From Candidatus Kuenenbacteria bacterium (GTDB lineage: Bacteria; Patescibacteriota; Patescibacteriia; UBA11705; JABHMO01): DNA of 64,000 nt. A program made the position numbers and the translations under genes. Shown here in pieces: positions 35,490 to 64,000 of this stretch (the stretch's first letter is position 1; each line of letters begins with the position of its first letter). The notes beneath the pieces are model-generated. The model was not told the DNA's origin, did not search any database, and saw only the letters and a program-made list of their open reading frames with translations. Where the stretch lies: positions 72,566-136,565 of the forward strand of contig JABMRF010000007.1 of the NCBI GenBank assembly GCA_013202715.1, given 5' to 3'.

Positions 35490-35523
35490 TATCGAGGCAA
35501 TCTTGTTGCCTCGATTTTTTATT
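35490..35523 (+). terminator. Rho-independent terminator
   Basis: atcgaggcaa tctt gttgcctcgat + TTTTTTAT. Confidence 0.75.
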
Positions 35524-37669: not shown

Positions 37670-40600
37670 ATGAAAAAAATCGCAAAAAACAAAATCTTTA
37701 CAGGGTTCATTGCTATGACAACAATTGTCTGGGCAATGGGTTTGGCTGGAGTTCTTACTCCCCTACTTCCCGCTCAGGCAGCAGTTACGGTTGCAACGGA
37801 AAACAGAATCTATTCGTCCTGGGATATGAGTGGCGGAATGATGAGTGATGTTGCAGCTTTTAAAGTTACTGCTGATTCTGGAGAAACATTGAATTCTATC
37901 AATGTCCGATTTAACAGCACTTATGGTACTGCAACTCCAGCTGCAATGCTTTCGGCTTTTAATGTGGCTGGTCAAGAAGGAGCAACTGACGTCCAAGGAT
38001 TGTCTATTTACAAAGATTCTAATGCAAATGGCTGGTTTGATCCGGGCGGAGGTGATATCGTAGTACCTTGGGAAGTTCAACCAACTTGGACTGATAATGG
38101 AAACGGTACGTTTGATACCTCCCTGAATATTGTTGATGATACTTTACCTACAAGTTATGCCGGTGATTGGAACTATTTTTTACATATGCAAATGGCCGCG
38201 TCCCCTGATGCAGGCAAATCATTTAAGTTTCAATTTGGTGCTGGCGCTGGTGGAGCAATTGTAACTTCTGGAACATCACCAAGTATTACTGCATTTGAAA
38301 CAAATTCAATTAATAGTAGTGGTGGTGGTGGTGGTGATTATACAGTTTCTCCTCGAATTACTGATATATTTTTCAAGAGTCCCACTTCATTAGTCCTAGA
38401 TTTTGATATGGACATGGATACTACTTCAGTAAACTGTAATGAAGTCCTTATTCCGGGTAGTTGTTCCAGTAAATATACTTTGTTTACTAGAGATGGTGCT
38501 GATAATCAAACAATTATTACTGCTGTCCGTGGAGTTGTTGGGGACAATACTATGGTAACTTTGACAGCACACGCTAATGCCAGAATAGGTTTGTCATCAC
38601 AGGATTATTTAGTTGTTAGTACTGATCCAGCACAGGCACCTAGAGATGCAACGAATGGTATGAGTTATAATGAGGACGGAGTGATTAATTTCCATATAAA
38701 CAACGGAAGTGCTGTTATTTCAGAAATTAAAATTGGTGGATCCGCTACCACGGATGAATTTATCGAGTTATATATAACAGATTCCGGTGGATCGGTCGAT
38801 TTGGATGGGTATAAAGTAACAGCATTGGTTTCAAATGTATATGTTACATTGGCAACGTTAGGACCAACCTCTTTAGATACTGGTAAGCATTATTTATTGG
38901 CAAATAAGGCAAATGATTATAATATGGCAGTAGATGGAGTTGCTATGTTGGCCGATTTTAACTTTTCCGGCGTGGACTTAGCAGATAATGATACTATTAT
39001 TTTAGTTGACAACAACGGTGTTGTTATTGATTTGGTTGGCTTTGGTGCAGCTGCCACGATTTATCAGGGTTACTCTCCGGCAGATTCTCCGGCTCCGAAT
39101 GGTTCAATTGAAAGAAAGGCTGTATATTCCTCTACTGGTCAGTCTATGTCAGAAGCAGATGTAGACGGTGGAAATGGTTATAATAGTTTGGATAATGGGT
39201 ATGATTTTGTGAGTAGAAACGTACTTGACTCTGATCCACAACCATCAACAGCCACAGCAGAAAGTTCCGGTATGCTGGAAGATGATTATGTAAATAGCAC
39301 TCCAACAATAGAACATATGCCTATTGCTATGGCAATAGCCGGACAAAGTATAACAATAGATGCCTATATTTACGATGTAGAAAATTCTTTTAATGCATTA
39401 ATAACAAAGCAATTGTGTTACAAAGCTCCAAATGGATCTTGGCCAGGAACTTGTGTGACCGGTACAGACGAAGGACAAAATAGAGTAGAGTTTTATATCC
39501 CAGCTTCAGAAGTCACTATAAGTGGGCTTAATTACTATATTGAAGTTATTGATTCAGGGACTTTTGCGGCTTATGCCTCTTCTAATCCTACGTCCACAAC
39601 CGCTGTCATGGCAAAATTAAGTCCTTTTTTAATAAATATTTCCGCTATTGCTGGCTCCAGGATGATTAGTGGTACAGTTTATCAAAGCGATTGCATAACA
39701 CCAATTTATAATGCGAATGTTTATGTGAAAGGCACAGGACTCAGTTCTATTAGTTCCGCTTCCGGTGTTTTCACAATTACCGGAGTTTCGGACGGAACAT
39801 ACAATTTAGAAGCAACAGCAAGTGGATATCTTTCCAGTGAAATTTGGGGAGCGTCTGTAGGTGTTAATAATCCAAATTCATCGGGCTGGGTATTTTGTCT
39901 ATCGTCAGGAACAGCTGGGCAAGGTGGGGATTCTGAAGCACCGCAGGTGATTATGTCAATGCCAGGTGATGGAATGATGGGAGCTCCAATTGATATAGTT
40001 ATTGATCGCGCTCCGATGTTTTTTATGCTTGATAAGGAAATTGATATGACCACCGTAAGCTGTACAGACTGTGATGCCGCTACAGATAATATTAAGTTGA
40101 AAAAGGTCAGCGGAGGTTCTATTACTAACATTACAGATTACAATGTTAGTTTCGATACTGGTCTGGGTGCAGCCAGTAGAGGGCAAACAGTCCAATTCGG
40201 AGGTAGTACTTCTAATCCTGTAATTGTTATTGATAAAGTTGCACTTTTGGAAATAGGAACAGATTATATAATTGAAATTACACCAGGGGTGAAAGATATG
40301 GCTGGTAATCCTCTTGAGGGAAACCGACCTGGTGGCGGACATACCATATCGTTTACTACTCAATCAACCAGTAATAATTTTAGTGGTAGTTCTGGGTTTG
40401 ACTTTACTGAAGATGAAACTTTTTGGCAAACTGGTGATTTCTCCAGTATGACCGAGGACGCTGGATACGCTACAATGATGGGAAATTTTGATGCAGACAA
40501 GGGTATGTGGGCCGGAGGTGCATATAGCCCTCTGTATGTTTATGGCTCCCAACCATCTCCTGGTAGCTGGAATGTACCTACAAATTTAACAAAAATTGTT

Positions 40601-43600
40601 ATAGAGTTTAGCGAACCAATTGATACCAATAGTGTTAATAAAGGAGCTTTTAATTTGTACTCTGTCAGTGGCGGTGTTTATACAGATGTAACCAGTACTT
40701 CTATTGTGGATGCTATATTGAGTTCAAATAAGTTATATGTAATTATGGACATTAATGGTACTTTGCCTGTTGGTGAATATGAAATAAGAGTCAAGGGTGG
40801 AGTCAGATCAATGTCAGGCATTACACTCGGCGATCCAAATAATCCGGGAAATGATCATTACATGTCAAATTTTACTGTTACCAATACAACTGATGTAACT
40901 GCCCCTACAATGAATGGTAGTTGGCCTGAAAATAATGATATGTCAGTACCAATGGACTTTGGCTTTATTGATATAGGATTTGCTGAAGCATTGGATCCAA
41001 CTAATATTAACACTACAAATGTCACTTTGAAAACTGGAACATCAACTGTGCCGACCAATGTTGAATACGATGCGATGAGACAGTCAATCAAAATTATACC
41101 TACTACCGGTTTGACTCCAGGTGTAGCATATACTGCAACTATTAGTTTTGGCGCTTCTGCCATTCAAGATTTAGCAGGATTACCCATGGATCTATCTGGA
41201 CTTCTACTCACATTCAAAATGACTACAACGGCAGATAGTACTCAGCCTGTGCTTGAGTTTGCGAATTGTGATAGCTATAGTTGTGCAATCACTTTTAATA
41301 AAGGCATGAGCGCACTCAAGCAAAGTGAAGCTTCATCAAACGCTAACCTTTGGACTGGCAGTGTGAGAAATCCGGCCAACTATGCTTTGACTTTTGGTCC
41401 AGGTGGAACTGATACCGTAGAAAGTCTTACGGCCAGTGGTGTGTCCTTTAATTATGAATATGATACCAATACCGTATTGGTTGAAGGATTATCATTTACA
41501 GGCTTAAATGCAGATACAGATAAATTTGTTTTAACAGTAACCAATGTATTAGATCTTTCAAATAATCCAATCAACACTAGTGCCAATACAGCCGGTGGAT
41601 ATATTATGGATTCATCCAAGTCCGGCGGTATGATGGGACCTGGTGGTGGTGGATTTATGGGAGGTGGTATGATGGGTGGCGGAATAATGACCGGTGGCCC
41701 AAGCGGATTTGGTGGATTTGGTGCCAAAGAAGCTATGATGATGGGCGCAGGTGTGATGCCAATGAATATGACAGCCGGCGCAACTACTACATACTTTATT
41801 GACTTCCCTATGCCTCCATCAGGTGGAACTGCTAATAAACTTGATGATGGTTCATATTTTAAATTGACCTTTCCAAAGGGAACTACTTTGACTGGTGCAA
41901 TTCCAGATCCATACAATCCAAGTAAGACTGATCTTAATATGAATGGTGATGCAGTGGTTGTTCTGTCTGAATCTGGAATCGCTGCAGATTCAGTTGCTGC
42001 AACTCAGGCTGGTGCTATCAATGATGGAGTTACAGTTTCAGGTCAAACTATGACCTTGTGGTTAGATACAAATAGCGGAACAACTAGTGATCCAGATATG
42101 TTCCACTTTGAAGTCAAGGGCATTGTAAATCCAAAGGCTCAGGATTTTAATTCTTCAGGATATACAGTAGATATGAAAGCATATAATAGTGGCGGTACAT
42201 TGATAGAATCTATGACTTCTATGCCGTACTTTATAAATGCCGCGGGGTCAAATAATATTACGATTAATGTAACTGCTGAAGATGGTCTTGGTGATATGAC
42301 TTTGATGATGGGATCACCAATGTCCGGTCCAATGGACGCAGATGTATCTCTCATGGCTGGTGTGGGAACTCAAACTTGGTCAAATTTGAATGATGGTTGT
42401 TATCATATTTTTACTGAGCCAACAATTACTCTTGGTATATATAAATATTCAGGTCAGATGAATCCGGAACCGATTTGTTTGCCGGGTTCCGGCGCAAACT
42501 GGACTGAAGCTACGAGTACATTAACCAAAGCACTTACCTTTACAAAACGTAGCGCTGCTAATTCAGCTCAGCTAGCAGTATTAGTCAGTGGTACCTTTGC
42601 AGACGCCGGTGAAGACGTAGATATTTTTGCTTTTGGCCCAAATGGTGGAACCGTTGAAACTGTGACTTTTGGCGGTGAAGTTGTAAATAATTCCACTACC
42701 CTCTTTCTTCCATCCAATGGTGATTACAATATTGGTATCGGTCCGGCAATGCCAAAGGGTCCGATGGCCGGTCCCCCACCAATGCCTGATTGGATGCCAC
42801 CTATGACAACTGCGATCACTGTCAGTGGTGTCGGTGGAACTCCGGTAATTAAACGAAACGACACCAATGCTACTATTACTGAATTACCTATATCAATTAC
42901 CAGCGCTACAAAAGAAATTCGTGGACTGGTGGTCTCCAAGGGAACAACTATAGGTGCAAGTTATACTGCAGCTGCGACAAGTCTAACCTTAACCAGTGGA
43001 AGTGGCTTTGCGGAAAATGACTTTATTTATATATCTGATGGAACAAATACCGCTACTGATAAGATTCTGTCTATCAGTGGTACAACTGTGCAATTAACCA
43101 GTGGAATGGGTACATCCTTTGCTTCTGGTAGCGCAGTCTATAACATCATTCCTGACACTGAATTATGGGCTAATCAGCCAATGGGCTTTGGTGGTATGGG
43201 ATCTCACGCAACTTCACAAGCTGATGGTTCATTTGTGTTAAAAGTTGCTTCAAATGGTACTTATGATATTGGTGCTTGGAAGTCAGGAATTGGTGATGCT
43301 CCTTCTAGTTCGGCAACTGTCAAAGATAATAATGGTGGTACAGTAGATGGAAATAGTACAGCCGACGTTAAGGTTAATGGAGCTAACATTACTACTGTAA
43401 ACCCGTTCCTAATAAAAATAGGTAGACCAGATTATGTAATCTCTGGGCGAGCTATTGATTCCAGTAATAATCCAATGCAATATACTCATGTGATGGCAGA
43501 AGAAACTACAACTCGCCAAATGGCACATTCAAATACAGATTCAGATGGTGATTATATCCTCAATGTTAGTGCAGGTACCTGGAGTATTCAGGTAGATACA

Positions 43601-46312
43601 CCTCCTAGCTTTGATGGCTGTGGATCGACCTCTGCTACTGTTGTTGTTGCCGAAGCAACTGGAGATATGAATAATCAGACATTGCAACCAGCCACTACAA
43701 CTTGTTATACAATTTCAGGAAATGTGTCTGTAGGTGGAAATCTTCAGACTAATGTGCCTATTATGGTGGAAGCCTGGGACACAGATAATGACTGGCCATC
43801 CGGAGGTTATAATCGACATGAAATGACTGATACTGCTGGTAATTATGCCGTAAAAGCTGGAGCTGGAACATACCGAGTTTCTATGTGGTCACCTGATTAC
43901 GGTGAGGTTGGATCCAATGTAGTAATTACCAGTGCTAATGTAACTCAAAATATTAGTTATGATGCTTCTGAGTTGAAAACATTGACTATTGCCTTTACCG
44001 GTGGAACAGCAAGTCAGAGAGGTTTTGTAGAAGCAAAATCAACTACAGGGTCAGGTCGTCGTGGTATACCAGTCGCTGATTTAAGTAGTAGCACAACAAT
44101 GAGTTTACCCGTCGATACATATAAAGTAATGGTGTTTGTTGATGGCCTTGGTGATTACTCCCCTTCTTCAGAGGTTGATCTCACAACAACTGATCAAACT
44201 GTAACTATAAATCTTTCAACTGAAACTTCACATGCAGTAAGTGGAACAATTTTAGATAGTAGTGATAACCCGGTTTCTGGTGCAGCAGTACTTCTTGTAA
44301 ATGAAACTACCGGGCTAGCTAAACAAGCAACTACTGATGCTAATGGTGATTATTCCGCCACTGTAAAGGAAGGAACATTTACTATCAAGGCAGAGCACAA
44401 GGATTATGCTTCATTACCAAAAGCAACTCTAGCTGTAACTTCTGATATTAACTATGATTTTGATAGTGATTCAGAAAATGAAGATATTGCTGTAGATAAT
44501 GATTTAGTTGAAAAAACTGTAAGTATTAGTGGTACGATTTATAAATCTGATGGTACAACTGAAATGAATACCGGCGGATTTGTTTACGCAACAGATTCAG
44601 TGACTGGATCAAAGGCTAAGGCCAATATTCAGGACGATGGAACATATATTCTTCCAGTTACTGCTGGAAATTGGACAGTCATAGCTGATGGACCACTTCA
44701 CTCCGAGACAACTCTTAGTACTGCTGTGTCAGTGTCAAGTACAAATGTAGCAAGTGAAGATATTACATTGACTGAAGATGCGACAGATATTAAAAAGTCA
44801 GAATCATCAACCTTTACCCCATCCTCGGGTGTTAATGTAAATGATGAAAACAATACCGGTTTTGAAATTACGGCCAGTTCAGGTTCGCTTGGTCAAAACA
44901 GCACAGCTACTTCTGGAACAATTACCCTCGAAGAAGTTGATATGCCTGCTTCTGATAATTTGGTGCCTGTTGGAAACTTTGTAGATGTTTCAATGAGAAC
45001 TACCACTTCATCAGGTACTTCAGATATTAATCAGTTGACCGGTAATGGTGCTGAAATCGTGTTTCACTATACAGCTGCTGATATGACTGCTGCCGGAATA
45101 ACAGATGAATCAATGATATCCTTGGCCTATTATGATGATACTACTGAAACTCTTATGCCACTCGATAATCTCGCCCGTGATACAACTAATAATACAGTAA
45201 CTGGTACAATTACTCATTTGACAGAAGTTGGTTTGGTTGCTCCGCCGTTGGTGTCGTCTTCAGCTCCGCGTAGTGTTATGCCAAGCGCGGGATCGGCTGT
45301 AATTACCACTCCAGCCACAGATGAAGTTACAGACGTAGTTGAAGATGATACATCTGTAGTTACAGATACAGATATTGATACTGTTACCACTGTTGTTACA
45401 GATGTCAAAGAAGTAACAAAAACAGTTATCGCTGAAACAACCGCTGTCACAAGCTTTGTTCCTGAAAAACCGGCAGATCGATCACTTGCTAAAGAAAGTT
45501 TAGCAGTCGGCGATTACATCAAGTTAACCAGAACAGCACCAGATTCAGCTGAGGAGTGGAAAGTGATTGATTACATGGCCTACGGAACAACTGCCAAGGT
45601 TAAATCAATGACTAACGGAGAAAGATTTGGACTGCTCGAAGATTACAAGATCGTTTACAACCGATTGCCTGCAGCTGATACTGACTGGGAATCACTTGGC
45701 AAGATGGCGCAAGGAACTACTCCGGCCCGAATTATCGGCCGGGAAGCTGAAGCGTTGAAAGCATTTGTCAAAGTATTTGGCCGAGTTGTAGACTTTAGTA
45801 AGTCAGCTGAAGAAAAGTTCATTCACAGCGTTGCTTATTACTTGCGCCCTGCTGAGCGTGATATGGCAAAAGAACAAGCAGCTTTGGGAACATTTGCTGA
45901 TGCTTATAACAAGCTTCCAAACACAAGTTTCTTCTGGTCAGTACTTCGAGGTGTTGCTTATTCTGGTGTAGAAAAGAATGCACCAGTCCCTGTCCCTGAA
46001 ATACCGGCAGTTGAAGTTACGGCTCCTGCTCTAGACAATGCGTCTAATGTTGTTCCAGCTCATCCCGCAACTGCTGACAGAAACTTGAAAGCTGAAATTA
46101 CCGCAGTTAGTGATTATTCAGCCTTGATGGGCGGAACTCCGGATTCAGCTGGTTGGAGTACAATTTACTTTATCTCTTACGGAAGTACTGATGCCAGCAT
46201 GGCCATGACTTCAGCTGAGAGATTGGAGATTATCAAGACTTACAAGAGTCAGAACGACAAATTGCCAACAACCGATAGTGACTGGCAAGCTGTAGCAGAT
46301 TTAGTTCAATAG
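37670..46312 (+). CDS. Giant secreted surface protein (2880 aa): signal peptide, lamin-tail domain, Ig-like/CarbopepD_reg-like beta domains, a Gly/Met-rich low-complexity linker, a Pro-rich segment and a C-terminal triple ~60-aa repeat
   Basis: Signal peptide MKKIAKNKIFTGFIAMTTIVWAMGLAGVLTPLLPAQA. LTD-like block SAVISEIKIGGSATTDEFIELYITDSGGSVDLDGYKV...DNDTIILVDNNGVVIDLVGFG. GGMMGPGGGGFMGGGMMGGGIM linker and PPPMPDWMPPM segment. Three C-terminal repeats with (A/I)YG(T/S)T...ER..(L/I)..YK...(D/N)KLP..D(S/T)DW. Confidence 0.85.
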   Translation: MKKIAKNKIFTGFIAMTTIVWAMGLAGVLTPLLPAQAAVTVATENRIYSSWDMSGGMMSDVAAFKVTADSGETLNSINVRFNSTYGTATPAAMLSAFNVAGQEGATDVQGLSIYKDSNANGWFDPGGGDIVVPWEVQPTWTDNGNGTFDTSLNIVDDTLPTSYAGDWNYFLHMQMAASPDAGKSFKFQFGAGAGGAIVTSGTSPSITAFETNSINSSGGGGGDYTVSPRITDIFFKSPTSLVLDFDMDMDTTSVNCNEVLIPGSCSSKYTLFTRDGADNQTIITAVRGVVGDNTMVTLTAHANARIGLSSQDYLVVSTDPAQAPRDATNGMSYNEDGVINFHINNGSAVISEIKIGGSATTDEFIELYITDSGGSVDLDGYKVTALVSNVYVTLATLGPTSLDTGKHYLLANKANDYNMAVDGVAMLADFNFSGVDLADNDTIILVDNNGVVIDLVGFGAAATIYQGYSPADSPAPNGSIERKAVYSSTGQSMSEADVDGGNGYNSLDNGYDFVSRNVLDSDPQPSTATAESSGMLEDDYVNSTPTIEHMPIAMAIAGQSITIDAYIYDVENSFNALITKQLCYKAPNGSWPGTCVTGTDEGQNRVEFYIPASEVTISGLNYYIEVIDSGTFAAYASSNPTSTTAVMAKLSPFLINISAIAGSRMISGTVYQSDCITPIYNANVYVKGTGLSSISSASGVFTITGVSDGTYNLEATASGYLSSEIWGASVGVNNPNSSGWVFCLSSGTAGQGGDSEAPQVIMSMPGDGMMGAPIDIVIDRAPMFFMLDKEIDMTTVSCTDCDAATDNIKLKKVSGGSITNITDYNVSFDTGLGAASRGQTVQFGGSTSNPVIVIDKVALLEIGTDYIIEITPGVKDMAGNPLEGNRPGGGHTISFTTQSTSNNFSGSSGFDFTEDETFWQTGDFSSMTEDAGYATMMGNFDADKGMWAGGAYSPLYVYGSQPSPGSWNVPTNLTKIVIEFSEPIDTNSVNKGAFNLYSVSGGVYTDVTSTSIVDAILSSNKLYVIMDINGTLPVGEYEIRVKGGVRSMSGITLGDPNNPGNDHYMSNFTVTNTTDVTAPTMNGSWPENNDMSVPMDFGFIDIGFAEALDPTNINTTNVTLKTGTSTVPTNVEYDAMRQSIKIIPTTGLTPGVAYTATISFGASAIQDLAGLPMDLSGLLLTFKMTTTADSTQPVLEFANCDSYSCAITFNKGMSALKQSEASSNANLWTGSVRNPANYALTFGPGGTDTVESLTASGVSFNYEYDTNTVLVEGLSFTGLNADTDKFVLTVTNVLDLSNNPINTSANTAGGYIMDSSKSGGMMGPGGGGFMGGGMMGGGIMTGGPSGFGGFGAKEAMMMGAGVMPMNMTAGATTTYFIDFPMPPSGGTANKLDDGSYFKLTFPKGTTLTGAIPDPYNPSKTDLNMNGDAVVVLSESGIAADSVAATQAGAINDGVTVSGQTMTLWLDTNSGTTSDPDMFHFEVKGIVNPKAQDFNSSGYTVDMKAYNSGGTLIESMTSMPYFINAAGSNNITINVTAEDGLGDMTLMMGSPMSGPMDADVSLMAGVGTQTWSNLNDGCYHIFTEPTITLGIYKYSGQMNPEPICLPGSGANWTEATSTLTKALTFTKRSAANSAQLAVLVSGTFADAGEDVDIFAFGPNGGTVETVTFGGEVVNNSTTLFLPSNGDYNIGIGPAMPKGPMAGPPPMPDWMPPMTTAITVSGVGGTPVIKRNDTNATITELPISITSATKEIRGLVVSKGTTIGASYTAAATSLTLTSGSGFAENDFIYISDGTNTATDKILSISGTTVQLTSGMGTSFASGSAVYNIIPDTELWANQPMGFGGMGSHATSQADGSFVLKVASNGTYDIGAWKSGIGDAPSSSATVKDNNGGTVDGNSTADVKVNGANITTVNPFLIKIGRPDYVISGRAIDSSNNPMQYTHVMAEETTTRQMAHSNTDSDGDYILNVSAGTWSIQVDTPPSFDGCGSTSATVVVAEATGDMNNQTLQPATTTCYTISGNVSVGGNLQTNVPIMVEAWDTDNDWPSGGYNRHEMTDTAGNYAVKAGAGTYRVSMWSPDYGEVGSNVVITSANVTQNISYDASELKTLTIAFTGGTASQRGFVEAKSTTGSGRRGIPVADLSSSTTMSLPVDTYKVMVFVDGLGDYSPSSEVDLTTTDQTVTINLSTETSHAVSGTILDSSDNPVSGAAVLLVNETTGLAKQATTDANGDYSATVKEGTFTIKAEHKDYASLPKATLAVTSDINYDFDSDSENEDIAVDNDLVEKTVSISGTIYKSDGTTEMNTGGFVYATDSVTGSKAKANIQDDGTYILPVTAGNWTVIADGPLHSETTLSTAVSVSSTNVASEDITLTEDATDIKKSESSTFTPSSGVNVNDENNTGFEITASSGSLGQNSTATSGTITLEEVDMPASDNLVPVGNFVDVSMRTTTSSGTSDINQLTGNGAEIVFHYTAADMTAAGITDESMISLAYYDDTTETLMPLDNLARDTTNNTVTGTITHLTEVGLVAPPLVSSSAPRSVMPSAGSAVITTPATDEVTDVVEDDTSVVTDTDIDTVTTVVTDVKEVTKTVIAETTAVTSFVPEKPADRSLAKESLAVGDYIKLTRTAPDSAEEWKVIDYMAYGTTAKVKSMTNGERFGLLEDYKIVYNRLPAADTDWESLGKMAQGTTPARIIGREAEALKAFVKVFGRVVDFSKSAEEKFIHSVAYYLRPAERDMAKEQAALGTFADAYNKLPNTSFFWSVLRGVAYSGVEKNAPVPVPEIPAVEVTAPALDNASNVVPAHPATADRNLKAEITAVSDYSALMGGTPDSAGWSTIYFISYGSTDASMAMTSAERLEIIKTYKSQNDKLPTTDSDWQAVADLVQ

Positions 46313-50227: not shown

Positions 50228-50302
50228 ATAGTCTAGAGTCTTGAGTCAATAGTCAAAAGTCGGAAATCTAACTCAGGACTTTTGACTCTAGACTTTTGAC
50301 TT
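50228..50302. repeat. Palindromic AGTC/GACT repeat cluster (copy 2)
   Basis: tagtctagagtcttgagtcaatagtcaaaagtc ... caggacttttgactctagacttttgac; same family as 13808-13884. Confidence 0.7.
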
Positions 50303-50408
50303 TATTATAGCGTAATTATATTTAATAGTAAATAGCCTTATGTTAGCTAAAACTAACGGGTTACCTAGTGTAAATTTAGATAATTTTATGAATATTAATT
50401 CATAGGTA

Positions 50409-50438
50409 TTGACAAATTTTTGAAACTATGCTATAATG
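50409..50438 (+). promoter_or_regulatory. Promoter TTGACA-18-TGcTATAAT driving the GC-rich gene
   Basis: AT-rich host-type promoter directly upstream of a 60% GC CDS. Confidence 0.55.
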
Positions 50439-50571
50439 CTGTATCAATTGGTTCTTTGAAAAATCGCTTGAGTACAACAGAAAGACCTTATTTACAATTA
50501 TCTATTGTATGTAGCGTCTTTTTGTTGTGTCGAGAGTCAACAATTTTTCAAAACCTTAATTGGAGGAAAGC

Positions 50572-52281
50572 ATGAAGAACGGAGAAAAGACGCTGAATGG
50601 AATCGTTGGTCTGTACAAGGAGTTTGGTCCCGACCTTCCGGTCGTGACCATCCAGGGAGTGCAGGTTGTCCGTCTGCCCAGCACCGTGACGGTGCTGGCG
50701 GACATGAAGGACGAGACGGTCCTCCAGCCCCTCAACCAGGCGAGGATTTTCCACGCCACTGACAGGCAGGGACAGTTTTTCCTGCTCCTCACCGAGGATG
50801 GCGCTGCCAAGATGGCATCGCTCATCGCAGAGGACCGGAACACCCGGGGTGAGGTTCTGACCGTGGCCGACGGCTACACCAAGTTCGTCACCTACACGGT
50901 GGCCATGGCAGCGGCAGCCGCCGCAGCCAAAGCCAAGAAGGCGGCAGCGGAAGCCAAGTCCCAGGCCAAGGCAGCAGCCACAGCCAAGCGGCTCGAGTCT
51001 TACAAGCTCATGGACCTGATCCGGTTCGGGCAGAGGGACTGCGTCCTCCTGCCCTCGGACGAGGTGGCGGAGATCCCGCTGCTAAAGGTCAAGCCCCTCC
51101 TGGGGACCATGGCTTCGTTCGTGAGGACCAAGCTGGAGGCAGTGGCCGAGCAGTACGAGGCCGACTACTCAACAGCTATCGCCGAGGCGCAGAAGGACAA
51201 GCCCTTCGCGCACGGCGGAGAGCTGGTCGACTGGGAGCGGGAGTTCCGTGCCCAGTGGGCTGACAAGAATGGCAAGTCCGCCCCGACGATGTGGGGTATG
51301 ACGGTTCTTCTCAGAAACTTCGACGATTACGGCGAGTTCGCCATGATCATCCGGTCGGATGACAAGGAGGCCATTCTGGGTCTCACCGGTTCGAGGTTGA
51401 TCTCTATGGGCGAGCCCATGCACTGGAGGCTCCGGAAGAAGTACTTCTTCGATCCGCGCGCAAAGGCGGCAGAAGAGGCGCGGAAGCTGGAGGCCAAGCT
51501 GGCTCGGGAAGCCAGGGCCAAGGAATCAGCGGAAAAGCTGCAGACCAAGGTCGAGGCCATGAAGGCCACCGGCAAGAACTTCCACACGTGTCAGGGCGAT
51601 ACCGTCTGGACACCTGTGGAATCCTTCGTGCGGATGTCCATGGACGATCTCGTCGTCTGCCCCGTCCTGGGGGAGATGAGCGAGGATGACGTCCTGGCCT
51701 GTATGGACGAGAAGTTCGTCGATGCGTACGAGTCCGCTCTGGACCAGGCGCAGAAGGCCGGCCCTCTCGGCGTGAAGGACTACTTCTCGTTCGAGGGGAA
51801 GTTCCGGAACGAGTATGCGAAGTCCAGCGGTGGTGCCACTCCCGGACTGGCGGACTTCGTCGTGGTGACGCGATACTTCCGTCGGGAAGGCGTGTGTTGC
51901 GCGGTCGTTCACAGGGACGATCTCGCGGCATTCAAGGCCATCGCGGGCAAGGGGACGAACCCCAACACCCGGGAGACCTACGAAGTTCCTCTTCGGGATC
52001 ACAGTGATCCCTTCTGGTGGATGCTCCGAAAGGAGCACTTCTTCGATCCCCTTTCCCAGCGAAAGGATCAGGAGAGGCAGGCAGAAGAAGAGGTCGTCGC
52101 GGTCCGGAAAGAACAGACGTTCGACCAGATGGGTGATCTCATCGGCGCTGAGCGACTGAAGGAGATGCGCGCATCGTTGGCTTCGGCCGACGAGGTCATC
52201 GATGATCACAAGTCTGCCGGCCGGCAGAAGTGGGACCGCCGGAAGAACGGTGGCGGCAAGAACCGCGGCAAGCGCGGCTAG
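50572..52281 (+). CDS. Hypothetical protein of foreign composition (~60% GC) with internal duplication, poly-Ala/Lys segments and a K/R/G-rich tail
   Basis: GGAGGA RBS; repeated P(M/F)xW(R/M)LRK(K/E)(Y/H)FFDP motif at two positions; AMAAAAAAAKAKKAAAEAK; C-terminal KWDRRKNGGGKNRGKRG. Confidence 0.6.
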   Translation: MKNGEKTLNGIVGLYKEFGPDLPVVTIQGVQVVRLPSTVTVLADMKDETVLQPLNQARIFHATDRQGQFFLLLTEDGAAKMASLIAEDRNTRGEVLTVADGYTKFVTYTVAMAAAAAAAKAKKAAAEAKSQAKAAATAKRLESYKLMDLIRFGQRDCVLLPSDEVAEIPLLKVKPLLGTMASFVRTKLEAVAEQYEADYSTAIAEAQKDKPFAHGGELVDWEREFRAQWADKNGKSAPTMWGMTVLLRNFDDYGEFAMIIRSDDKEAILGLTGSRLISMGEPMHWRLRKKYFFDPRAKAAEEARKLEAKLAREARAKESAEKLQTKVEAMKATGKNFHTCQGDTVWTPVESFVRMSMDDLVVCPVLGEMSEDDVLACMDEKFVDAYESALDQAQKAGPLGVKDYFSFEGKFRNEYAKSSGGATPGLADFVVVTRYFRREGVCCAVVHRDDLAAFKAIAGKGTNPNTRETYEVPLRDHSDPFWWMLRKEHFFDPLSQRKDQERQAEEEVVAVRKEQTFDQMGDLIGAERLKEMRASLASADEVIDDHKSAGRQKWDRRKNGGGKNRGKRG

Positions 52282-52325
52282 CTACCCAAACCTACCTAGG
52301 GACGTCCGTCCCAAAAGTCCCCCCC

Positions 52326-52360
52326 GCACTCGGGGGGGACATTTTTTTTGTCCGGATTTA
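52326..52360 (+). terminator. Rho-independent terminator (C7/G7 stem)
   Basis: gtccccccc gcactc gggggggac + TTTTTTTT. Confidence 0.85.
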
Positions 52361-52468
52361 AAAGGGGGCTCCATAGTTGCGGAGCACTGTGGAGTCCATA
52401 TAGGGATGTTTTAACGGTGATTTTGTGGAAGTTCTTTAAATTTTCCAACAGGACTATGGAGCCCCCTT
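52361..52468. repeat. ~108-nt element bounded by 16-17-bp perfect inverted repeats (possibly MITE-like or a structured RNA)
   Basis: aagggggctccatagt (52361-52377) ... actatggagccccctt (52452-52468) with internal ggagtccata/tatggagcc pairing. Confidence 0.55.
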
Positions 52469-52510
52469 TACTTTGTGTTTTTTGCGATTTTGCCTGTTTC
52501 GCGCTTTTGC

Positions 52511-52545
52511 GTTTATAGCTTGACAACTTAGCAATTTATACCTAT
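52511..52545 (+). promoter_or_regulatory. Promoter TTGACA-17-TATACT
   Basis: ttgacaacttagcaatttatacctatact upstream of the 52612 gene. Confidence 0.5.
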
Positions 52546-52611
52546 ACTAAGAAAAAGGACATGTTCGTTAAATTTGAGCCCCATGTTGCTAATTTGACTA
52601 GAGGAGGCTTG

Positions 52612-53286
52612 ATGATAAGGGTAAGTAAATCAAACTTGGTTTCGCCAATAAGCGATGCGTTTTGGCCGGTGTTTTTCTCAAGTGAATTGATTGTTCGTTT
52701 CGTTGCTCAGGCAGTTTGTTTTGCCTTGTGCGATAAAAAGAAAAAACCACAATTGATTTTTGTTTATCCATATGAAGGGTCTTCGAGTCGACCGACCGCT
52801 GGTCAGCTTTTGCAAGTTTTTCAGAACTGCAAAGATCCTTGGCGAGAGTTTAGACCATTTGCTCTGCCGGTAAAAATGTCTGACCTTCTCGATCTGACCG
52901 GCGTGAATATTGAATGTGTCCAGGATGATTCGCGAGAAGTGGTTATTCTGTATGCGAACAAACAACCGAAGGATGAAATTGATTTCTCTGATTCGATGCT
53001 TGTTAGCGGGTATGCAAAGGCCGATCTTATTGATATGAGATCGTGGCCAGAAAACCCGGAAGAATATACGGTTCATTCTGCGGGATTTGAACCTGATGGA
53101 TGGAACTCTGAACATTACAGGCTTTTCGTAGAAAACTACGTTGTTCAAGGGGATCATATTTGCAGGATTCTCGCCTTAGCCAGAATTGGCTGTGAGGTTG
53201 AACTCTCCCCCACTGTGCGTATCAACGCCAGGTCCAAGATCATGATTAACCCTCCAATCAAAGACGAACATCGAATTGTTCACTAG
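52612..53286 (+). CDS. Hypothetical protein (~45% GC)
   Basis: GGAGG RBS 6 nt upstream of the ATG at 52612; 224 aa; no motif. Confidence 0.45.
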   Translation: MIRVSKSNLVSPISDAFWPVFFSSELIVRFVAQAVCFALCDKKKKPQLIFVYPYEGSSSRPTAGQLLQVFQNCKDPWREFRPFALPVKMSDLLDLTGVNIECVQDDSREVVILYANKQPKDEIDFSDSMLVSGYAKADLIDMRSWPENPEEYTVHSAGFEPDGWNSEHYRLFVENYVVQGDHICRILALARIGCEVELSPTVRINARSKIMINPPIKDEHRIVH

Positions 53287-60438: not shown

Positions 60439-60530
60439 ATAACGCGAATGTCACTAATTTTAACGCGAATATCGCGAATCGCGAATGTTGCGAATAATAA
60501 TATTCGTGTTATTCGCGATTTGCCGTTCGG
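60439..60530. repeat. (C/T)GCGAAT repeat array with inverted ATTCGC units, upstream of the LigB-like gene
   Basis: aacgcgaatg...taacgcgaatatcgcgaatcgcgaatgttgcgaataataatattcgtgttattcgcgat. Confidence 0.7.
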
Positions 60531-60586: not shown

Positions 60587-61375
60587 ATGCTCACCTTTGC
60601 GGCCATTGTGCCTCATCCACCGGTCTTGATTCCAAGTATCGGTAAAGAAAATATAGATAAATTAAAAAAAACCATTAGTGCTTTGGATATTCTTGAGGAA
60701 GAATTAAATCAAGCGAATCCTGATACTATAATTGTGATTTCTCCGCATGGCGAAATTAATTTTGAAGCATTTACAGTTAATACTAATGAAAAATATACAG
60801 CAAGATTTGAAAATTTTGGCGATTTTACAACCAAGCTGGAATTTAAATCAGATCTGGGATTTATAAATCAGCTAAAAGCGACAAATGAAACAAAATTACC
60901 GGTCCAACTGATTTCACAAGAAAATCTTGATCATGGTGTGTCGGTCCCCCTTTATTACTTGACTCGAAAAAATCAAGATCGCAGAATTGTGCCGATCAAT
61001 TATAGTTTTTTGAATTTTAATAAACATTTAGAGTTTGGCGAATTGATAAAAGAAGCCATTTTTTCTTCAGACAAAAGAGTTGCAATTATTGCTTCCGGAG
61101 ATCTATCACACAAGTTGAGTTTGCGAGCGCCAGCAGGATTTTCTCCACACGCAAAAGAGTTCGACAAAAAGCTGATTCAGGTTTTGAAAAAGAAAAGTGT
61201 GCAGGGAATTTTGGATATGGATCCGGCCTTTATCGAAGAGGCTGGCGAATGCGGTCTACGCTCATTCCTGATCCTACTTGGAGCGATTAAAAACATGAAA
61301 TATGAATTTGAAGTTTTGAGCTACGAAGCACCGTTTGGGGTTGGCTATTTAGTCGGAGAGTTCAAGTTTGCGTAA
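60587..61375 (+). CDS. LigB/Memo-superfamily (class III extradiol-dioxygenase-like) protein
   Basis: N-terminal AAIVPHPPV (LigB-type metal His), VISPHGE, and ASGDLSHKLS (YgiD/DODA-like S-x-D-L-S-H). Confidence 0.55.
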   Translation: MLTFAAIVPHPPVLIPSIGKENIDKLKKTISALDILEEELNQANPDTIIVISPHGEINFEAFTVNTNEKYTARFENFGDFTTKLEFKSDLGFINQLKATNETKLPVQLISQENLDHGVSVPLYYLTRKNQDRRIVPINYSFLNFNKHLEFGELIKEAIFSSDKRVAIIASGDLSHKLSLRAPAGFSPHAKEFDKKLIQVLKKKSVQGILDMDPAFIEEAGECGLRSFLILLGAIKNMKYEFEVLSYEAPFGVGYLVGEFKFA

Positions 61376-61430
61376 TGCGAATATAGATAAATGCGAATGA
61401 CGCGAATCGCGAATGATGCGAATAAAGAAT
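61371..61430. repeat. (C/T)GCGAAT repeat array downstream of the LigB-like gene
   Basis: gcgtaatgcgaatatagataaatgcgaatgacgcgaatcgcgaatgatgcgaataaag; five units mirroring the upstream array. Confidence 0.7.
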
Positions 61431-61504: not shown

Positions 61505-61533
61505 TTGACAAATCAAGAAAAATCATGTATAAT
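61505..61533 (+). promoter_or_regulatory. Promoter TTGACA-17-TATAAT (TG directly upstream) for the GC-rich CSD-fusion gene
   Basis: ctttgacaaatcaagaaaaatcatgtataatg. Confidence 0.55.
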
Positions 61534-61658
61534 GCTACTTAAACAAGTTCCTTTCAAAGTATCGAAAACTGTGTGTTTCAGTGGACCCCTCCGGGTCTGT
61601 CTGTGGTTAGGGTTTGCATGTGCAAGCCCATCTGTTTGTTAACCGTATGGAGGTAGAG

Positions 61659-63182
61659 ATGACAGTAGATCGAGGAAGTATCGTTTCAGCTGAAGTGCTC
61701 AGAATGCTCATGTCCTCACCGGGCGAAGATGAAGAACTCAGCGGTGAGATTGTCAGCATTGGAGCCAAAGACTTTGCGTTCATTGGGAATGTGAAGGACT
61801 CACGGGGCCGGCCGGTTGATACCGGCGCTGGCGATGTGTTTCTTCACCAGGAGGAACTCCTTGGTGGAAAAATGGAAGTTGGGACGGTCCTGAAGTTCAG
61901 GGTTGTTCCCGATGAGAGGAGACTCGGTAAACTGCGAGCGCTTCAGGCGCACTCAGTCGATCTGGCTCTGGTGCCGGTGAAAAAGGAAGTTGTGTTTCCG
62001 GTGTCAGTCGTTACCGGCGCACAGTCGTTCTACCACGTGCGTGCCAAGAAGATTCTGCCGGAAATCGTTGACCAGGCTGACAACAACAAGCCGTTTGACG
62101 GTGTCTTCCGACCGACTTCCCAGGCAGATGCGATCAAGATTGCGAACCGAGATGTCCTGGCCGACGTGATCAACGTTTGGCTGAAGGCGAGCTTCGCGAT
62201 GTTCGAGAGCTTCGGTGTGAACTTCGATCTGCGCCAGCCAGTGACGGATGAAGAGCGGGACATGATCGAAAAGTACGCCCAGTCGTTTGGCAATGGTGGC
62301 ATGGATGCTGCAGCTCGGAAGCTCAAGCAGCAGTTCGAGACGTTCTTGAACACCAAGGATGTCTTCAACTACCTGTACAATTCAAATCGCCTCCTGCCCC
62401 AGAGCGTACTCAGTGTTGACTACCTGCCTGACATGATGATGGCCGCGCCGGTCTGGTTCGCACGAGGGAAAGAGGAATTCCCCAACAAACAGGATAGACA
62501 CGATCCAATGCCGGACGAGTTTGTTCAGTACATGTGCGGACTGGGCAAAACCCAGCGCATGGCAAACCTGATGCAGCTTTTCAATCGGCGCACACGGCCG
62601 TTTGACATGTATGAGGGAGACGTGATTCCTCCTCATATCTGGGAGACGATCCAGGCCTGCTCAAACAGAGACAACCTGTTGTCAAAGTTCGATTACCTGG
62701 TGATTGCCACTCCGTATCACAACATTGCCAGCAAGGAATGGGCTGATCCCAACTGGCAGGGCATGATTGATCCTTACCTGCTTGCATTCTCAAAGGATGT
62801 GCCTGAATTTTTCTTCGTGCTTGGTCGTTGGAGTGACACGGGGCTTCTGCCGCTAGTTAGCGAGATGACGGCCGATACCGTGAATTTCACGAGAGAGCAC
62901 CTTGAGGGAATTGAGAACTTTTCTCAGCCCTACTGGCACATTGAGGCTGGTGACAAAAAGGATAGTGATCCAGAGGATGATGAAGGGTCTCGGATTGCGG
63001 CTGATGGTACACATTATAATCAGAGTTTAAAAGACGGTGTTCCTGCTCCATATCTCAAGGATGGTTCATTGCCACAATTTGCCAGGGAATTGATCGAGCG
63101 TTTCGAAAAGGGTGACCTTTTCCCCTGGCTGACGGATGACACTTACACCGGAGAGCCGGATGAGACGACACCTGAAGGTTAA
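61659..63182 (+). CDS. Hypothetical protein of foreign composition (~58% GC) with an N-terminal cold-shock/S1-like OB domain
   Basis: GGAGGTAG RBS; N-terminal GEIVSIGAKDFAFIGNVKDSRGRPVDTGAGDVFLHQEEL...GTVLKFRVV parallels the CspA fold pattern (GxV..F...KGFGFI......DVFVH...L); about 400 aa of unknown domain follow. Confidence 0.55.
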   Translation: MTVDRGSIVSAEVLRMLMSSPGEDEELSGEIVSIGAKDFAFIGNVKDSRGRPVDTGAGDVFLHQEELLGGKMEVGTVLKFRVVPDERRLGKLRALQAHSVDLALVPVKKEVVFPVSVVTGAQSFYHVRAKKILPEIVDQADNNKPFDGVFRPTSQADAIKIANRDVLADVINVWLKASFAMFESFGVNFDLRQPVTDEERDMIEKYAQSFGNGGMDAAARKLKQQFETFLNTKDVFNYLYNSNRLLPQSVLSVDYLPDMMMAAPVWFARGKEEFPNKQDRHDPMPDEFVQYMCGLGKTQRMANLMQLFNRRTRPFDMYEGDVIPPHIWETIQACSNRDNLLSKFDYLVIATPYHNIASKEWADPNWQGMIDPYLLAFSKDVPEFFFVLGRWSDTGLLPLVSEMTADTVNFTREHLEGIENFSQPYWHIEAGDKKDSDPEDDEGSRIAADGTHYNQSLKDGVPAPYLKDGSLPQFARELIERFEKGDLFPWLTDDTYTGEPDETTPEG

Positions 63183-63194
63183 GTTGTAAAAACA

Positions 63195-63228
63195 GAGCCC
63201 CCCCGCATCGCGGGGGGGCCTTTTTCTT
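63195..63228 (+). terminator. Rho-independent terminator (C7/G7 stem)
   Basis: gcccccccgcatcgcgggggggc + TTTTT; same style as 52326-52360. Confidence 0.85.
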
Positions 63229-63280
63229 CCAAAAAATTGGACTGGATTTTTGTGTAATTTTTGTTATAATACAAGCACCT

Positions 63281-64000
63281 ATGAAAAAGATCGCTCAAAT
63301 TATTCCCATAAAAAAGCTGCCAAGGGGTATGCGGTTTTTTGATTACTGGGAAAAAGAAGGCGAAAGAGGGCGAAAGAAGGCGAAAGAAGATGGAGACATT
63401 GAAATTAAGGTTGGGGATATTGTGAACATTCCTTTTCGCAAGAATATGATGATCAAGGGAATTGTGCATTCTTTCAAGGATACAACCGATTTTCCAGAAG
63501 CAAAGGAGATTGACAGCTTGGATGAAGATTATGGCGGACTGCTCCCCTATCAGCTAGAATTAATTTTTTGGTTTTCCGAGTATTATTACCATTCTTTGGG
63601 CTCTACCGCTGACATGTTTTTTCCGGCCGTTCCGAAACGGGCGGTAAAGATTTCTGATGCAGAAGATGAAAAGATACCTACTTTGAACGACCAAAAAAGC
63701 GATTCAAAAGTGATCAGTTTATCTGAACAAATAAATAGTTCAAAAGAAAAAAAATATTTACTGTTTCCGTACGATTTGGAAATGAAAGAACAGTTTTATC
63801 TGGAACTGTGCCGACAGGCAATCAAAAACAAAAAGCAAATCCTAATTTTATTTCCGCAAGTATATAAAGTGGAAGAGTTTGCTCAGAAGTTACCAAATGA
63901 ACTTAAAGAAAAAACTGCCGTGCTCACTTCTGATTTATATACGGCCAAATCAAGATATTTTCGAACCTGGAAACAAATCAAGGAAAATCAAAAACAGATC
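63281..64000 (+). CDS. priA: Primosomal protein N' (PriA), N-terminal part; runs off the window
   Basis: N-terminal 3'-DNA-binding-domain pattern (F.DYW...G.IV.IPFRKNM.IKGIV), then LLFPYD and LILFPQVY helicase-entry motifs. Contains the in-frame GGCGAAAGA repeat insert. Confidence 0.6.
   Translation, partial: MKKIAQIIPIKKLPRGMRFFDYWEKEGERGRKKAKEDGDIEIKVGDIVNIPFRKNMMIKGIVHSFKDTTDFPEAKEIDSLDEDYGGLLPYQLELIFWFSEYYYHSLGSTADMFFPAVPKRAVKISDAEDEKIPTLNDQKSDSKVISLSEQINSSKEKKYLLFPYDLEMKEQFYLELCRQAIKNKKQILILFPQVYKVEEFAQKLPNELKEKTAVLTSDLYTAKSRYFRTWKQIKENQKQI

What the first reader, a model, noticed from the sequence alone, without database searches (positions are those of the whole stretch)
50409..52360. 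Single-gene island at 60% GC: internally duplicated protein with poly-Ala/Lys segments and a K/R/G tail under a host-type promoter
The CDS 50572-52281 is ~60% GC, with codons such as ctg, gcc, ggc and cgg, in a ~36% GC genome. It is nevertheless driven by an AT-rich TTGACA-N18-TGcTATAAT promoter of the same style as housekeeping genes, and it ends in a C7/G7 hairpin terminator. The protein has two homologous halves, each ending in P(M/F)xW(R/M)LRK(K/E)(Y/H)FFDP. It also has an AMAAAAAAAKAKKAAAEAKSQAKAAA low-complexity region and a basic KWDRRKNGGGKNRGKRG tail. I cannot assign it to a known family. The architecture resembles a nucleic-acid- or chromatin-associated protein acquired horizontally from a high-GC donor and then domesticated. 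Palindromic repeat copy 2 (50228-50302) sits exactly at its left boundary.
Basis: seen in the sequence. Interest (0 to 1): 0.75.

Follow-up and report, generated by a model that had tools for sequence, protein, structure and literature searches.

The report
Conserved GC-rich orphan gene in Patescibacteria
This is a real gene of unknown family that has sat in the same chromosomal slot across a clade of tiny AT-rich (Patescibacteria) bacteria, changing its protein sequence very fast while staying extremely GC-rich, so its odd composition is being actively maintained and is not a leftover of recent gene transfer.

Summary
CDS 50572-52281 is 61.6% GC with GC3 0.805, against neighbour GC3 of about 0.34. 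It has a 12/12 consensus extended -10 promoter, a C7/G7 terminator, an internal duplication (z=22), an Ala/Lys tract and a basic tail. No family, solved structure or fold matches it.

The reading "recent island from a high-GC donor" is not supported. The window is a Ca. Kuenenbacteria MAG. Relatives with gltX 60-84% identical keep the synteny M23-gltX-[X]-orf241-wecG, and slot X always holds one GC-rich gene (GC3 0.64-0.95). That gene sits behind the same promoter, a clade-specific palindrome and a long leader hairpin. The six sequence-proven homologues also share a covarying 3' stem-loop.

All detectable homologues lie in this slot; none is in a GC-rich genome, phage or plasmid. X identity tracks gltX identity but falls about six times faster. 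Synonymous sites of flanking genes are saturated, so the high GC3 must be maintained.

The GC step falls at the start codon. The CDS also folds more stably than synonymous-shuffled controls in 8 of 10 orthologues.

Best guess: an abundant, clade-specific, probably nucleic-acid-binding protein made from an mRNA selected to be highly structured and stable. Function is unproven.

The parts
50370..50379 (+). GTAAATTTAG, a one-mismatch copy of the clade-specific palindrome CTAAWTTTAG, 30 nt upstream of the -35. Candidate regulator binding site.
   Evidence: Exact copies lie at a comparable position upstream of X (106-251 nt before the assigned start codons) in L005, L008, L032/L033, L034 and L037. 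One-mismatch copies occur in WIN, L004 and L007, and a two-mismatch copy in L036. There are none in about 290 kb of loci from genomes lacking X. The window has 4 exact sites against 0.5 expected.
50409..50437 (+). Sigma-70 promoter TTGACA-17-TATAAT with an extended -10 TG.
   Evidence: 12/12 consensus. TTGACAAA...TGnTATAAT is invariant or nearly so in 9 orthologous loci (alignment A4).
50444..50571 (+). 128-nt AT-rich 5' leader. It forms a long, nearly perfect hairpin starting at or near the predicted 5' end. The Shine-Dalgarno GGAGG is at 50562-50566.
   Evidence: MFE -40 kcal/mol, z about -5. All 9 orthologues have 96-236-nt leaders with a long hairpin of unrelated sequence (z -2.3 to -7.2).
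50572..52281 (+). CDS of protein X (569 aa; NCBI hypothetical protein HQ571_01450). Layout: N-terminal domain about aa 1-110, Ala/Lys helix 111-145, core repeat 1 at 146-296, charged helix, core repeat 2 at 336-494, helices, basic K/R/G tail 553-569.
52299..52313 (+). Small 3'-UTR stem-loop GGGAC-GTCC-GTCCC, preceded by a pyrimidine-rich tract.
   Evidence: Conserved with compensatory changes: GGGAC/GTCCC in WIN, L032 and L034; GGGGC/GCCCC in L036 and L004, with L037 carrying the variant GGGC/GCCC; GGGAT/ATCCC in L041. It is the only such site in the window.
52317..52349 (+). Intrinsic terminator: C7/G7 10-bp stem plus a T-run.
   Evidence: The same C7...G7 design occurs only once more in the window, after the GC-rich ORF 61659-63182.
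52361..52470 (+). 110-nt long hairpin between the X terminator and the promoter of the next gene.
   Evidence: The 18-bp GC-rich basal stem is part of a fold with z -4.3. By eye, L004 and L036 carry long inverted repeats of unrelated sequence at the same place; these were not folded.
52561..53286 (+). Conserved partner gene (241 aa, no family) with its own promoter at 52520-52548. It always follows X.
   Evidence: Present next to X in all complete loci. Identity is 21-34% to WIN and up to 64% among the closest relatives. GC3 is moderately raised in several lineages, for example 0.54-0.61 against medians of 0.30-0.32 in L007, L008 and L043.

Best explanation
X is a vertically inherited, clade-specific gene, not a recent island. 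It is shared by the Kuenenbacteria/Falkowbacteria-like Patescibacteria that have gltX at least 60% identical to this genome.

Shown: a two-gene block (X plus the 241-aa ORF) entered the wecG-gltX junction in the clade's ancestor. Since then X has diverged about six times faster than gltX, while its expression signals and extreme GC richness were preserved.

Inferred:
- The GC richness is held by selection on the transcribed coding body, not by donor ancestry.
- The mRNA looks built to be unusually structured and long-lived. It has a hairpin at or near the 5' end, a GC-rich CDS with more hairpins than its codon usage predicts, a conserved 3' stem-loop and a strong terminator.
- It is driven by a perfect consensus promoter under a palindromic operator-like site.
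- The product is most likely an abundant, non-enzymatic nucleic-acid-binding or scaffolding protein. Its core alpha/beta domain is present once in the relatives and twice here, so the duplication may act as a covalent dimer.
For: Same slot, same composition:
- The same slot and synteny appear in 13 loci from at least 10 genomes. Slot gene GC is 0.50-0.70 and GC3 0.64-0.95, while the upstream 200 nt are 0.28-0.46 GC.

Homology and descent:
- BLASTP or phmmer links WIN to P0002, P0003 and P0004 (E 1e-8 to 1e-17). L004x links through P0002/P0004, and P0005 and P0006 were retrieved by the family profile. All lie in the slot.
- X identity tracks gltX identity: gltX 94/84/82/77/72% corresponds to X 66/38/40/45/29% (Spearman 0.52, p 3e-4).
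- dN of X is 3-7 times that of gltX. For L007 vs L008, X has pS 0.40 and dN/dS about 1.1, while gltX pS is 0.68. Flanking genes are at or near synonymous saturation in most pairs.

Conserved noncoding elements:
- The promoter is invariant.
- The CTAAWTTTAG palindrome is confined to the clade.
- A leader hairpin is present in 9 of 9 loci.
- The 3' stem-loop covaries.

Where the GC pressure acts:
- The GC step coincides with the start codon, and the first 12 codons are less GC-rich (GC3 0.58).
- The bias affects every codon family, including families read by a single tRNA, such as Phe.

RNA structure:
- The native CDS is more stable than synonymous shuffles: z -1.7 to -7.1 with global shuffles and -0.65 to -9.3 with local shuffles, and 8 of 10 are at or below -2.5. 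Control genes give -2.5 to +2.5.
- Folding energy per 200 nt is similar (-78 to -92 kcal/mol) across orthologues whose GC3 ranges from 0.64 to 0.95.

Protein:
- The family alignment has only a few invariant residues and no conserved catalytic-looking set of residues.
- The last 30 residues have pI 9.8-11.6 in 8 of 11 orthologues.
Against: - No expression, half-life or binding data exist, so mRNA stability as the selected trait is an inference from design features.
- The excess structure is modest: 5-12% of the folding energy in most orthologues, and weak in L043 and L007.
- Long leader hairpins seem common in this genome (for example in the gltX leader), so that feature is not specific to X.
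- The occupants in L005, L007/L008/L043 and L010 are not statistically linked to the WIN family (HMM scores are in the shuffle range; hhalign E 0.015-0.28). "One orthologous gene" is therefore proven for only part of the clade.
- The AF2 models rest on 6-7 sequences. The N-terminal domain and the full-length model have low confidence.
- Nucleic-acid binding rests only on low-complexity basic segments and weak helix-hairpin-helix hits.
Confidence: 0.4

Rival explanations
1. Horizontal acquisition from a high-GC donor, with the GC content a fading donor signature, or repeated re-acquisition of GC-rich cassettes into the same slot behind a resident promoter.
For: - Composition and codon usage are typical of a 60-70% GC organism.
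- The X plus orf241 block is an insertion relative to more distant genomes.
- The occupants in L005, L007/8 and L010 cannot be shown to be homologous to the WIN family, which is what cassette replacement would look like.
Against: - No homologue exists outside this slot in 1.84 billion representatives, in the 5.8-billion-protein set, or in phages and plasmids.
- X divergence follows gltX divergence.
- The GC step sits exactly at the start codon, with the promoter and leader conserved and AT-rich in 9 loci.
- Flanking synonymous sites are saturated, yet GC3 stays at 0.80-0.95. It is highest in the most AT-rich genomes (L007, L008 and L043).
- The weak similarities that do exist are collinear and fall at equivalent positions.
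Confidence: 0.12
2. A local neutral process drives both the fast divergence and the GC enrichment. Candidates are GC-biased gene conversion at a recombination hot spot, or a locally GC-biased mutation process linked to very high transcription.
For: - Fast protein evolution with dN/dS of 0.5-1.1.
- GC1 and GC2 are also raised and the amino-acid composition is shifted: Ala 12-18% vs 5.9%, Ile 2.5% vs 7.8%. This fits a nucleotide-level pressure overriding weak protein constraint.
- The neighbouring orf241 is mildly GC-enriched in some lineages.
Against: - Conversion tracts or mutation bias should not stop at the start codon, yet the promoter and leader immediately upstream stay at 28-46% GC in all loci.
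- gltX, 350 nt away, is unaffected.
- The excess RNA structure relative to synonymous shuffles is not predicted by a composition-only process.
- Known bacterial gBGC effects amount to a few percent of GC3, not +0.45 (general knowledge, not tested here).
Confidence: 0.15
3. The GC richness serves to escape an AT-directed process, not to stabilise the mRNA as such. One version is an AT-preferring nucleoid silencer, or X itself binding AT-rich DNA. Another is an AU-specific endoribonuclease or toxin active under stress, so that X is expressed when other genes are shut down.
For: - The features are the same as for the main model: the pressure acts on the transcribed body, in all codon families, and is conserved.
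- The basic tail and Ala/Lys tract resemble nucleoid proteins.
Against: - No candidate silencer or toxin was identified.
- There are no PADLOC hits for X or its partner.
- The model does not by itself explain the excess of hairpins.
Confidence: 0.13

Closest known systems
Genomic islands and ORFans identified by atypical GC and codon usage (classical horizontally transferred 'alien' genes that ameliorate over time)
   Same: A single gene whose GC, GC3 and codon usage are far from the host's. It has no homologues of known function. It is an insertion relative to more distant genomes.
   Different: It is positionally conserved and vertically inherited across a clade whose synonymous sites are saturated. 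There is no amelioration: GC3 is 0.80-0.95 in most lineages. The compositional step is at the start codon, and the promoter and leader are conserved and native. No integrase, tRNA gene or direct repeats were seen at the boundaries.
Basic-tailed bacterial nucleoid proteins with Ala/Lys-rich repeats (actinobacterial HupB/Hlp C-terminal tails, chlamydial Hc1; recalled from memory)
   Same: An Ala/Lys-rich low-complexity helix and an R/K/G-rich C-terminal tail. High expression is inferred from the promoter.
   Different: There is no HU/IHF or H1 domain (Pfam is negative). The overall pI is near neutral (6.8) in WIN. The core domain has no detectable fold relative. DNA binding is untested.
mRNAs stabilised by 5'-terminal stem-loops and 3' hairpins (E. 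coli ompA leader, B. subtilis aprE and ermC leaders; recalled from memory)
   Same: A long hairpin starts at or within a few nucleotides of the predicted 5' end. Stem-loops lie in the 3' UTR. The promoter is strong.
   Different: Here the whole coding body is also recoded to GC-rich, hairpin-rich sequence. That is not a feature of those examples. The 5' end has not been mapped.

Membership tests
Recently acquired genomic island (horizontal transfer from a high-GC donor) | Atypical composition relative to the host genome | tested here: met
   GC 0.616 and GC3 0.805, against neighbours at about 0.38 and 0.34.
Recently acquired genomic island (horizontal transfer from a high-GC donor) | Patchy presence: absent from the same site in related genomes | tested here: not met
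   A GC-rich gene occupies the same slot in all relatives examined with gltX 60-84% identical. It is absent only from much more distant genomes.
Recently acquired genomic island (horizontal transfer from a high-GC donor) | Homologues in a plausible donor lineage or mobile element | tested here: not met
   The only homologues are in this slot of AT-rich Patescibacteria. None is in phages or plasmids.
Recently acquired genomic island (horizontal transfer from a high-GC donor) | Mobility hallmarks at the boundaries (integrase, tRNA gene, direct repeats) | tested here: not met
   There are no tRNA genes in the window and no flanking direct repeats. The palindrome at 50228-50302 lies in the gltX leader, not at the compositional boundary.
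Histone-like / nucleoid-associated proteins (HU/IHF, H1-like Hc1, Lsr2, H-NS) | A recognisable DNA-binding domain of one of these families | tested here: not met
Histone-like / nucleoid-associated proteins (HU/IHF, H1-like Hc1, Lsr2, H-NS) | Binding to DNA and abundance in the cell | not testable with these tools
   Only indirect cues exist: the basic tail and the consensus promoter.
Structured non-coding RNA (a GC-rich island in an AT-rich genome that is really an RNA gene) | Match to an RNA family, or absence of coding signal | tested here: not met
   There are no Rfam matches at the gathering threshold in the window. The 569-codon ORF shows the GC1>GC2<GC3 pattern. A protein-level duplication and motifs conserved in the homologues show that it is coding.
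Anti-phage defence systems (PADLOC models) | Match of X or its partner gene to a defence protein model | tested here: not met
   No hits for X or orf241. L007x gave only a weak partial hit, E 0.001 over 35 aa.

The most novel reading that the evidence does not exclude
The gene is built for expression outside the symbiont's own translational context. Its parts are a universal 12/12 consensus promoter, a consensus Shine-Dalgarno sequence and a coding body with the codon usage of a 60-70% GC organism. The composition is conserved while the protein races ahead at dN/dS up to about 1. This is what one would expect if the DNA or mRNA of X were delivered to, and expressed in, a high-GC host cell of these episymbiotic bacteria, as a T-DNA-like effector. 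It would also fit if the GC-rich structured RNA itself were a second functional product. Nothing here shows transfer. The reading is simply not excluded.
Probability: 0.04. Interest if true: 0.95.

Novelty: categorically new. Interest (0 to 1): 0.68.

Why it matters
Atypical GC content is the standard flag for horizontally acquired genes. Here a gene keeps an extreme foreign-looking composition (GC3 0.80-0.95 in most lineages, against 0.3-0.5 for the host) across a clade whose synonymous sites have turned over completely.

The compositional edge sits exactly at the start codon, and the promoter and UTR elements are conserved. Composition itself therefore looks like the selected trait, probably acting through mRNA structure.

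If confirmed, three things would follow:
- It would caution against reading GC outliers as transfer in Patescibacteria (CPR) genomes.
- It would be a natural example of whole-gene recoding for RNA-level properties.
- It would give a handle (consensus promoter plus the CTAAWTTTAG operator-like site) on gene regulation in an uncultivated phylum.

The protein family has no known fold or function and appears to be highly expressed.

Tried and rejected
Sequence and profile searches for X found no family:
- Pfam, PHROGs, NCBIfam, PADLOC and PDB sequences gave nothing.
- The word-indexed 5.8-billion-protein search returned only X itself.
- Profile searches added just P0005, P0006 and P0008.

Structure gave no assignment:
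- AF2 with 6-7 sequences gave a usable core but poor N-terminal and full-length models.
- AFDB50 was unavailable.

Other searches:
- Phage and plasmid tblastn found no match.
- The search for related loci with the family alignments failed because no stretch was conserved enough.
- The metagenome scan with the partner-gene alignment returned mostly genomes already seen.
- Three literature searches found no description of persistently GC-rich genes in CPR/Patescibacteria.

Considered and rejected:
- Assembly chimera: independent assemblies and orthologous loci argue against it.
- Non-coding RNA gene: there is a clear coding signal.
- Functional antisense ORFs: the long antisense ORFs lie in the codon-aligned frame and are a by-product of avoiding TTA, CTA and TCA.
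- tRNA-isoacceptor or translational-selection explanations: the bias is equally strong in codon families read by a single tRNA and in both C- and G-ending codons.
- Replication origin or terminus: cumulative GC skew is monotonic.
- Relatedness of X to the other GC-rich ORF at 61659-63182: none detected.
Full report
**1. What is there**

The window is a 39.5% GC genome fragment. The only exact database match names the protein 'hypothetical protein HQ571_01450 [Candidatus Kuenenbacteria bacterium]', so this is a Patescibacteria/CPR metagenome-assembled genome.

Between 50501 and 52500 the GC content rises to 55-62%. The ORF starting at ATG 50572 (GGAGG at 50562-50566) and ending at TAG 52281 encodes 569 aa. 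Its GC1/2/3 is 0.63/0.41/0.805, a normal coding pattern but with an extreme third position. The other roughly 50 ORFs of the window have GC3 of 0.27-0.50, mostly 0.30-0.39.

Codon choice is the mirror image of the neighbours in every family: AAG 0.96 vs 0.25, TTC 0.92 vs 0.18, ATC 0.86 vs 0.25, CAG 1.00 vs 0.44.

The promoter is a perfect TTGACA-17-TATAAT with an extended -10 TG. The terminator is a C7/G7 10-bp stem plus T8.

The protein contains a duplicated domain of about 150 aa. Residues 146-296 against 336-494 score 130, compared with 27.9 +/- 4.6 for shuffles (z=22). Both copies end in the P-x-x-W-x-LRK-x-x-FFDP motif. The Ala/Lys tract and the K/R/G tail are also present.

**2. Not an artefact and not a known family**

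The identical gene occurs in independent assemblies (two JGI metagenomes and a Logan assembly). All three carry the same right-hand flank, and the 203.8-kb JGI contig spans both junctions.

Pfam, PHROGs, NCBIfam, PADLOC and PDB sequence searches find nothing. A full phmmer scan of 1.84 billion representative proteins finds only three distant relatives (E 1e-9 to 3e-8). Profile searches add three more proteins: two in this family and one in the L007/L008-type family. Phage and plasmid collections have no match.

**3. The decisive context**

I fetched gltX loci from GTDB species representatives and the contigs encoding the distant homologues. The neighbourhood giant surface protein - M23 peptidase - gltX - [X] - 241-aa ORF - WecG/NUDIX - (LigT) - (radical SAM) - ClpB is conserved in genomes whose GltX is 60-84% identical to the window's.

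In every one of them the slot between gltX and the 241-aa ORF holds a single GC-rich gene. Its GC is 0.50-0.70 and GC3 0.64-0.95, in genomes of 39-48% GC with upstream intergenic DNA at 28-46% GC.

All proteins that are detectably homologous to the window's protein (P0002-P0006, L004x, partial L006x) sit in this slot. P0004 is on a contig too short to show its flanks.

In more distant Patescibacteria, wecG and gltX are directly adjacent and no GC3 outlier is present (L011-L014, L017). The X plus 241-aa block is therefore an ancient insertion at the base of this clade.

**4. Vertical descent with a very high rate and a maintained composition**

X identity follows GltX identity. GltX 94% corresponds to X 66%; 84% to 38%; 82% to 40%; 77% to 45%; 71-72% to 25-29%. 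The groupings are the same for both genes (Spearman 0.52, p 3e-4).

dN of X is 3-7 times that of gltX. In the L007/L008 pair dN/dS is about 1.1, because synonymous change is restricted (pS 0.40 against 0.68 for gltX). In most comparisons the flanking genes are at synonymous saturation (pS 0.75-0.87). A foreign GC3 left to drift would therefore have equilibrated. Instead it is 0.80-0.95 in most lineages, and highest (0.94-0.95) in the most AT-rich genomes.

The occupants in L005, L007/L008/L043 and L010 cannot be statistically tied to the WIN family. HMM scores fall in the shuffle range and hhalign gives E 0.015-0.28. The weak alignments are nonetheless collinear and fall on the same core element. 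L010x shares the '(K/R)GDRH' tail. The rate extrapolation predicts loss of detectable similarity at about 66% GltX identity. I treat orthology there as likely but unproven.

**5. Conserved non-coding architecture**

- The TTGACAAA...TGnTATAAT promoter is invariant or nearly so in nine loci.
- A palindrome CTAAWTTTAG, or a one-mismatch version, lies 2-30 nt upstream of the -35. Exact copies are rare, are confined to genomes of the X clade, and about half of them sit at X.
- All nine orthologues have 96-236-nt AT-rich leaders dominated by a long hairpin of unrelated sequence (z -2.3 to -7.2). In the window it begins at the predicted 5' end.
- In the six sequence-proven homologues aligned (plus L041), a pyrimidine tract and a small stem-loop follow the stop codon. 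The stem-loop varies by compensatory changes (GGGAC/GTCCC, GGGGC/GCCCC, GGGAT/ATCCC), and the terminator comes after it.
- The GC step coincides with the start codon, and the first 12 codons are less GC-rich.
It abuts the gltX start codon, downstream of a plausible minus-strand promoter at 50332-50304. It is a leader hairpin of gltX, not an island boundary.

**6. Why GC-rich**

The bias affects all codon families. That includes families decoded by a single tRNA, and both C- and G-ending codons. It also drags GC1, GC2 and amino-acid composition: Ala 12-18% vs 5.9%, Ile 2.5% vs 7.8%. This points to pressure at the nucleotide level, not selection through tRNAs.

A mutational or gene-conversion process should not respect the start codon or spare the promoter 130 nt away. 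I therefore tested RNA structure. The native CDS folds more stably than versions with synonymous codons shuffled globally (z -1.7 to -7.1) or within 67-codon blocks (z -0.65 to -9.3, with 8 of 10 at or below -2.5). Control genes (gltX, ClpB, WecG, M23 and others) give -2.5 to +2.5.

Folding energy per 200 nt is similar across orthologues (-78 to -92 kcal/mol, against -32 to -47 for neighbouring genes of typical composition). This holds even for the L005 gene, whose GC3 is only 0.64. Several near-perfect hairpins of 11-15 bp lie inside the CDS.

Four features fit an mRNA selected to be highly structured and probably long-lived: the 5'-terminal hairpin, the 3' stem-loops, the strong terminator and the consensus promoter. 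This is an inference. No expression or half-life data are available.

**7. What the protein may do**

Only a few residues are invariant across the family, and there is no conserved catalytic-looking set of residues, so an enzyme is unlikely. Several features are compatible with nucleic-acid binding or scaffolding:
- an Ala/Lys helix;
- charged coiled segments;
- a basic R/K/G tail (last 30 aa at pI 9.8-11.6 in 8 of 11 orthologues);
- sub-threshold helix-hairpin-helix matches in the L007/L008-type proteins, which also show a CxxC...CxxH pattern on inspection of the sequence.

The relatives carry one core domain where the window protein carries two. This suggests a covalent version of a dimer.

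**8. Verdict**

What remains is a clade-specific, fast-evolving orphan gene whose extreme composition, RNA structure and expression signals are conserved better than its protein sequence.

I found no description of such a case in three full-text searches.

My confidence differs by claim:
- About 0.85 that this is a vertically inherited gene with actively maintained GC richness.
- About 0.4 for the specific mechanism: a structured, stable mRNA encoding an abundant nucleic-acid-binding protein.

Noticed in passing
window 61506-63230: A second GC-rich orphan gene (61659-63182, 507 aa, GC3 0.60, no Pfam/NCBIfam hit). It has a TTGACAAA...TGTATAAT promoter, a leader of about 120 nt and a C7/G7 hairpin terminator (63199-63217) of the same design as X's. 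These are the only two such terminators in the window. It is not related to X in sequence.
   Followed up: partly
window 12737-13470 (- strand): A third GC-rich orphan ORF (208 aa, GC3 0.67, signal-peptide-like N-terminus). Immediately upstream it has an exact CTAATTTTAG palindrome and a TATTGACA-N17-TATGCTATACT promoter, the same style as X. This hints at a small regulon of GC-rich genes.
   Followed up: partly
window 35500-36180: A gap of about 690 nt without an ORF, following another mildly GC-rich ORF (34911-35390, GC3 0.56). It contains three exact copies of the CTAAWTTTAG palindrome (35774, 35863, 35957). It could be a regulatory region or an unannotated RNA. There is no Rfam match at the gathering threshold.
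   Followed up: no
window 50228-50302 and 13808-13878; 60462-60497 / 61374-61425; 63348-63387 / 8792-8817; L004, L034, L036 intergenic regions: Intergenic and leader hairpins built from short repeated words (GAGTC/GACT words, GCGAATG words, GGCGAAAGA x4). Each locus and each related genome uses different words at equivalent places. They look like a general feature of transcripts or terminators in this clade.
   Followed up: partly
window 52561-53286 and orthologues (e.g. L007 5460-6077, L008 5423-6040): The 241-aa partner gene always follows X and has its own promoter and no known family. In some lineages it is itself GC-enriched (GC3 0.54-0.61 against a median of about 0.30).
   Followed up: partly
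L004 5736-7046 (+), L007 6207-7787 (+), L010 5927-7204 (+); window 51526-52209 (-): Near full-length antisense ORFs overlap X in several orthologues. They lie in the codon-aligned antisense frame (their GC3 equals the sense GC1) and are explained by the avoidance of TTA, CTA and TCA codons. They can mislead gene callers.
   Followed up: yes
window 32268-34835: Two tandem paralogous genes (32358-33422 and 33548-34795). The upstream and 3'-flank sequences are duplicated at 86-91% identity (repeats D1, D2, D5).
   Followed up: no
window 37670-46312: A giant 2880-aa ORF (LTD, Big_5 and CarboxypepD_reg domains according to precomputed Pfam) with unusually low GC3 (0.27) and high GC2 (0.48). It is conserved upstream of the M23-gltX-X neighbourhood in relatives.
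   Followed up: no
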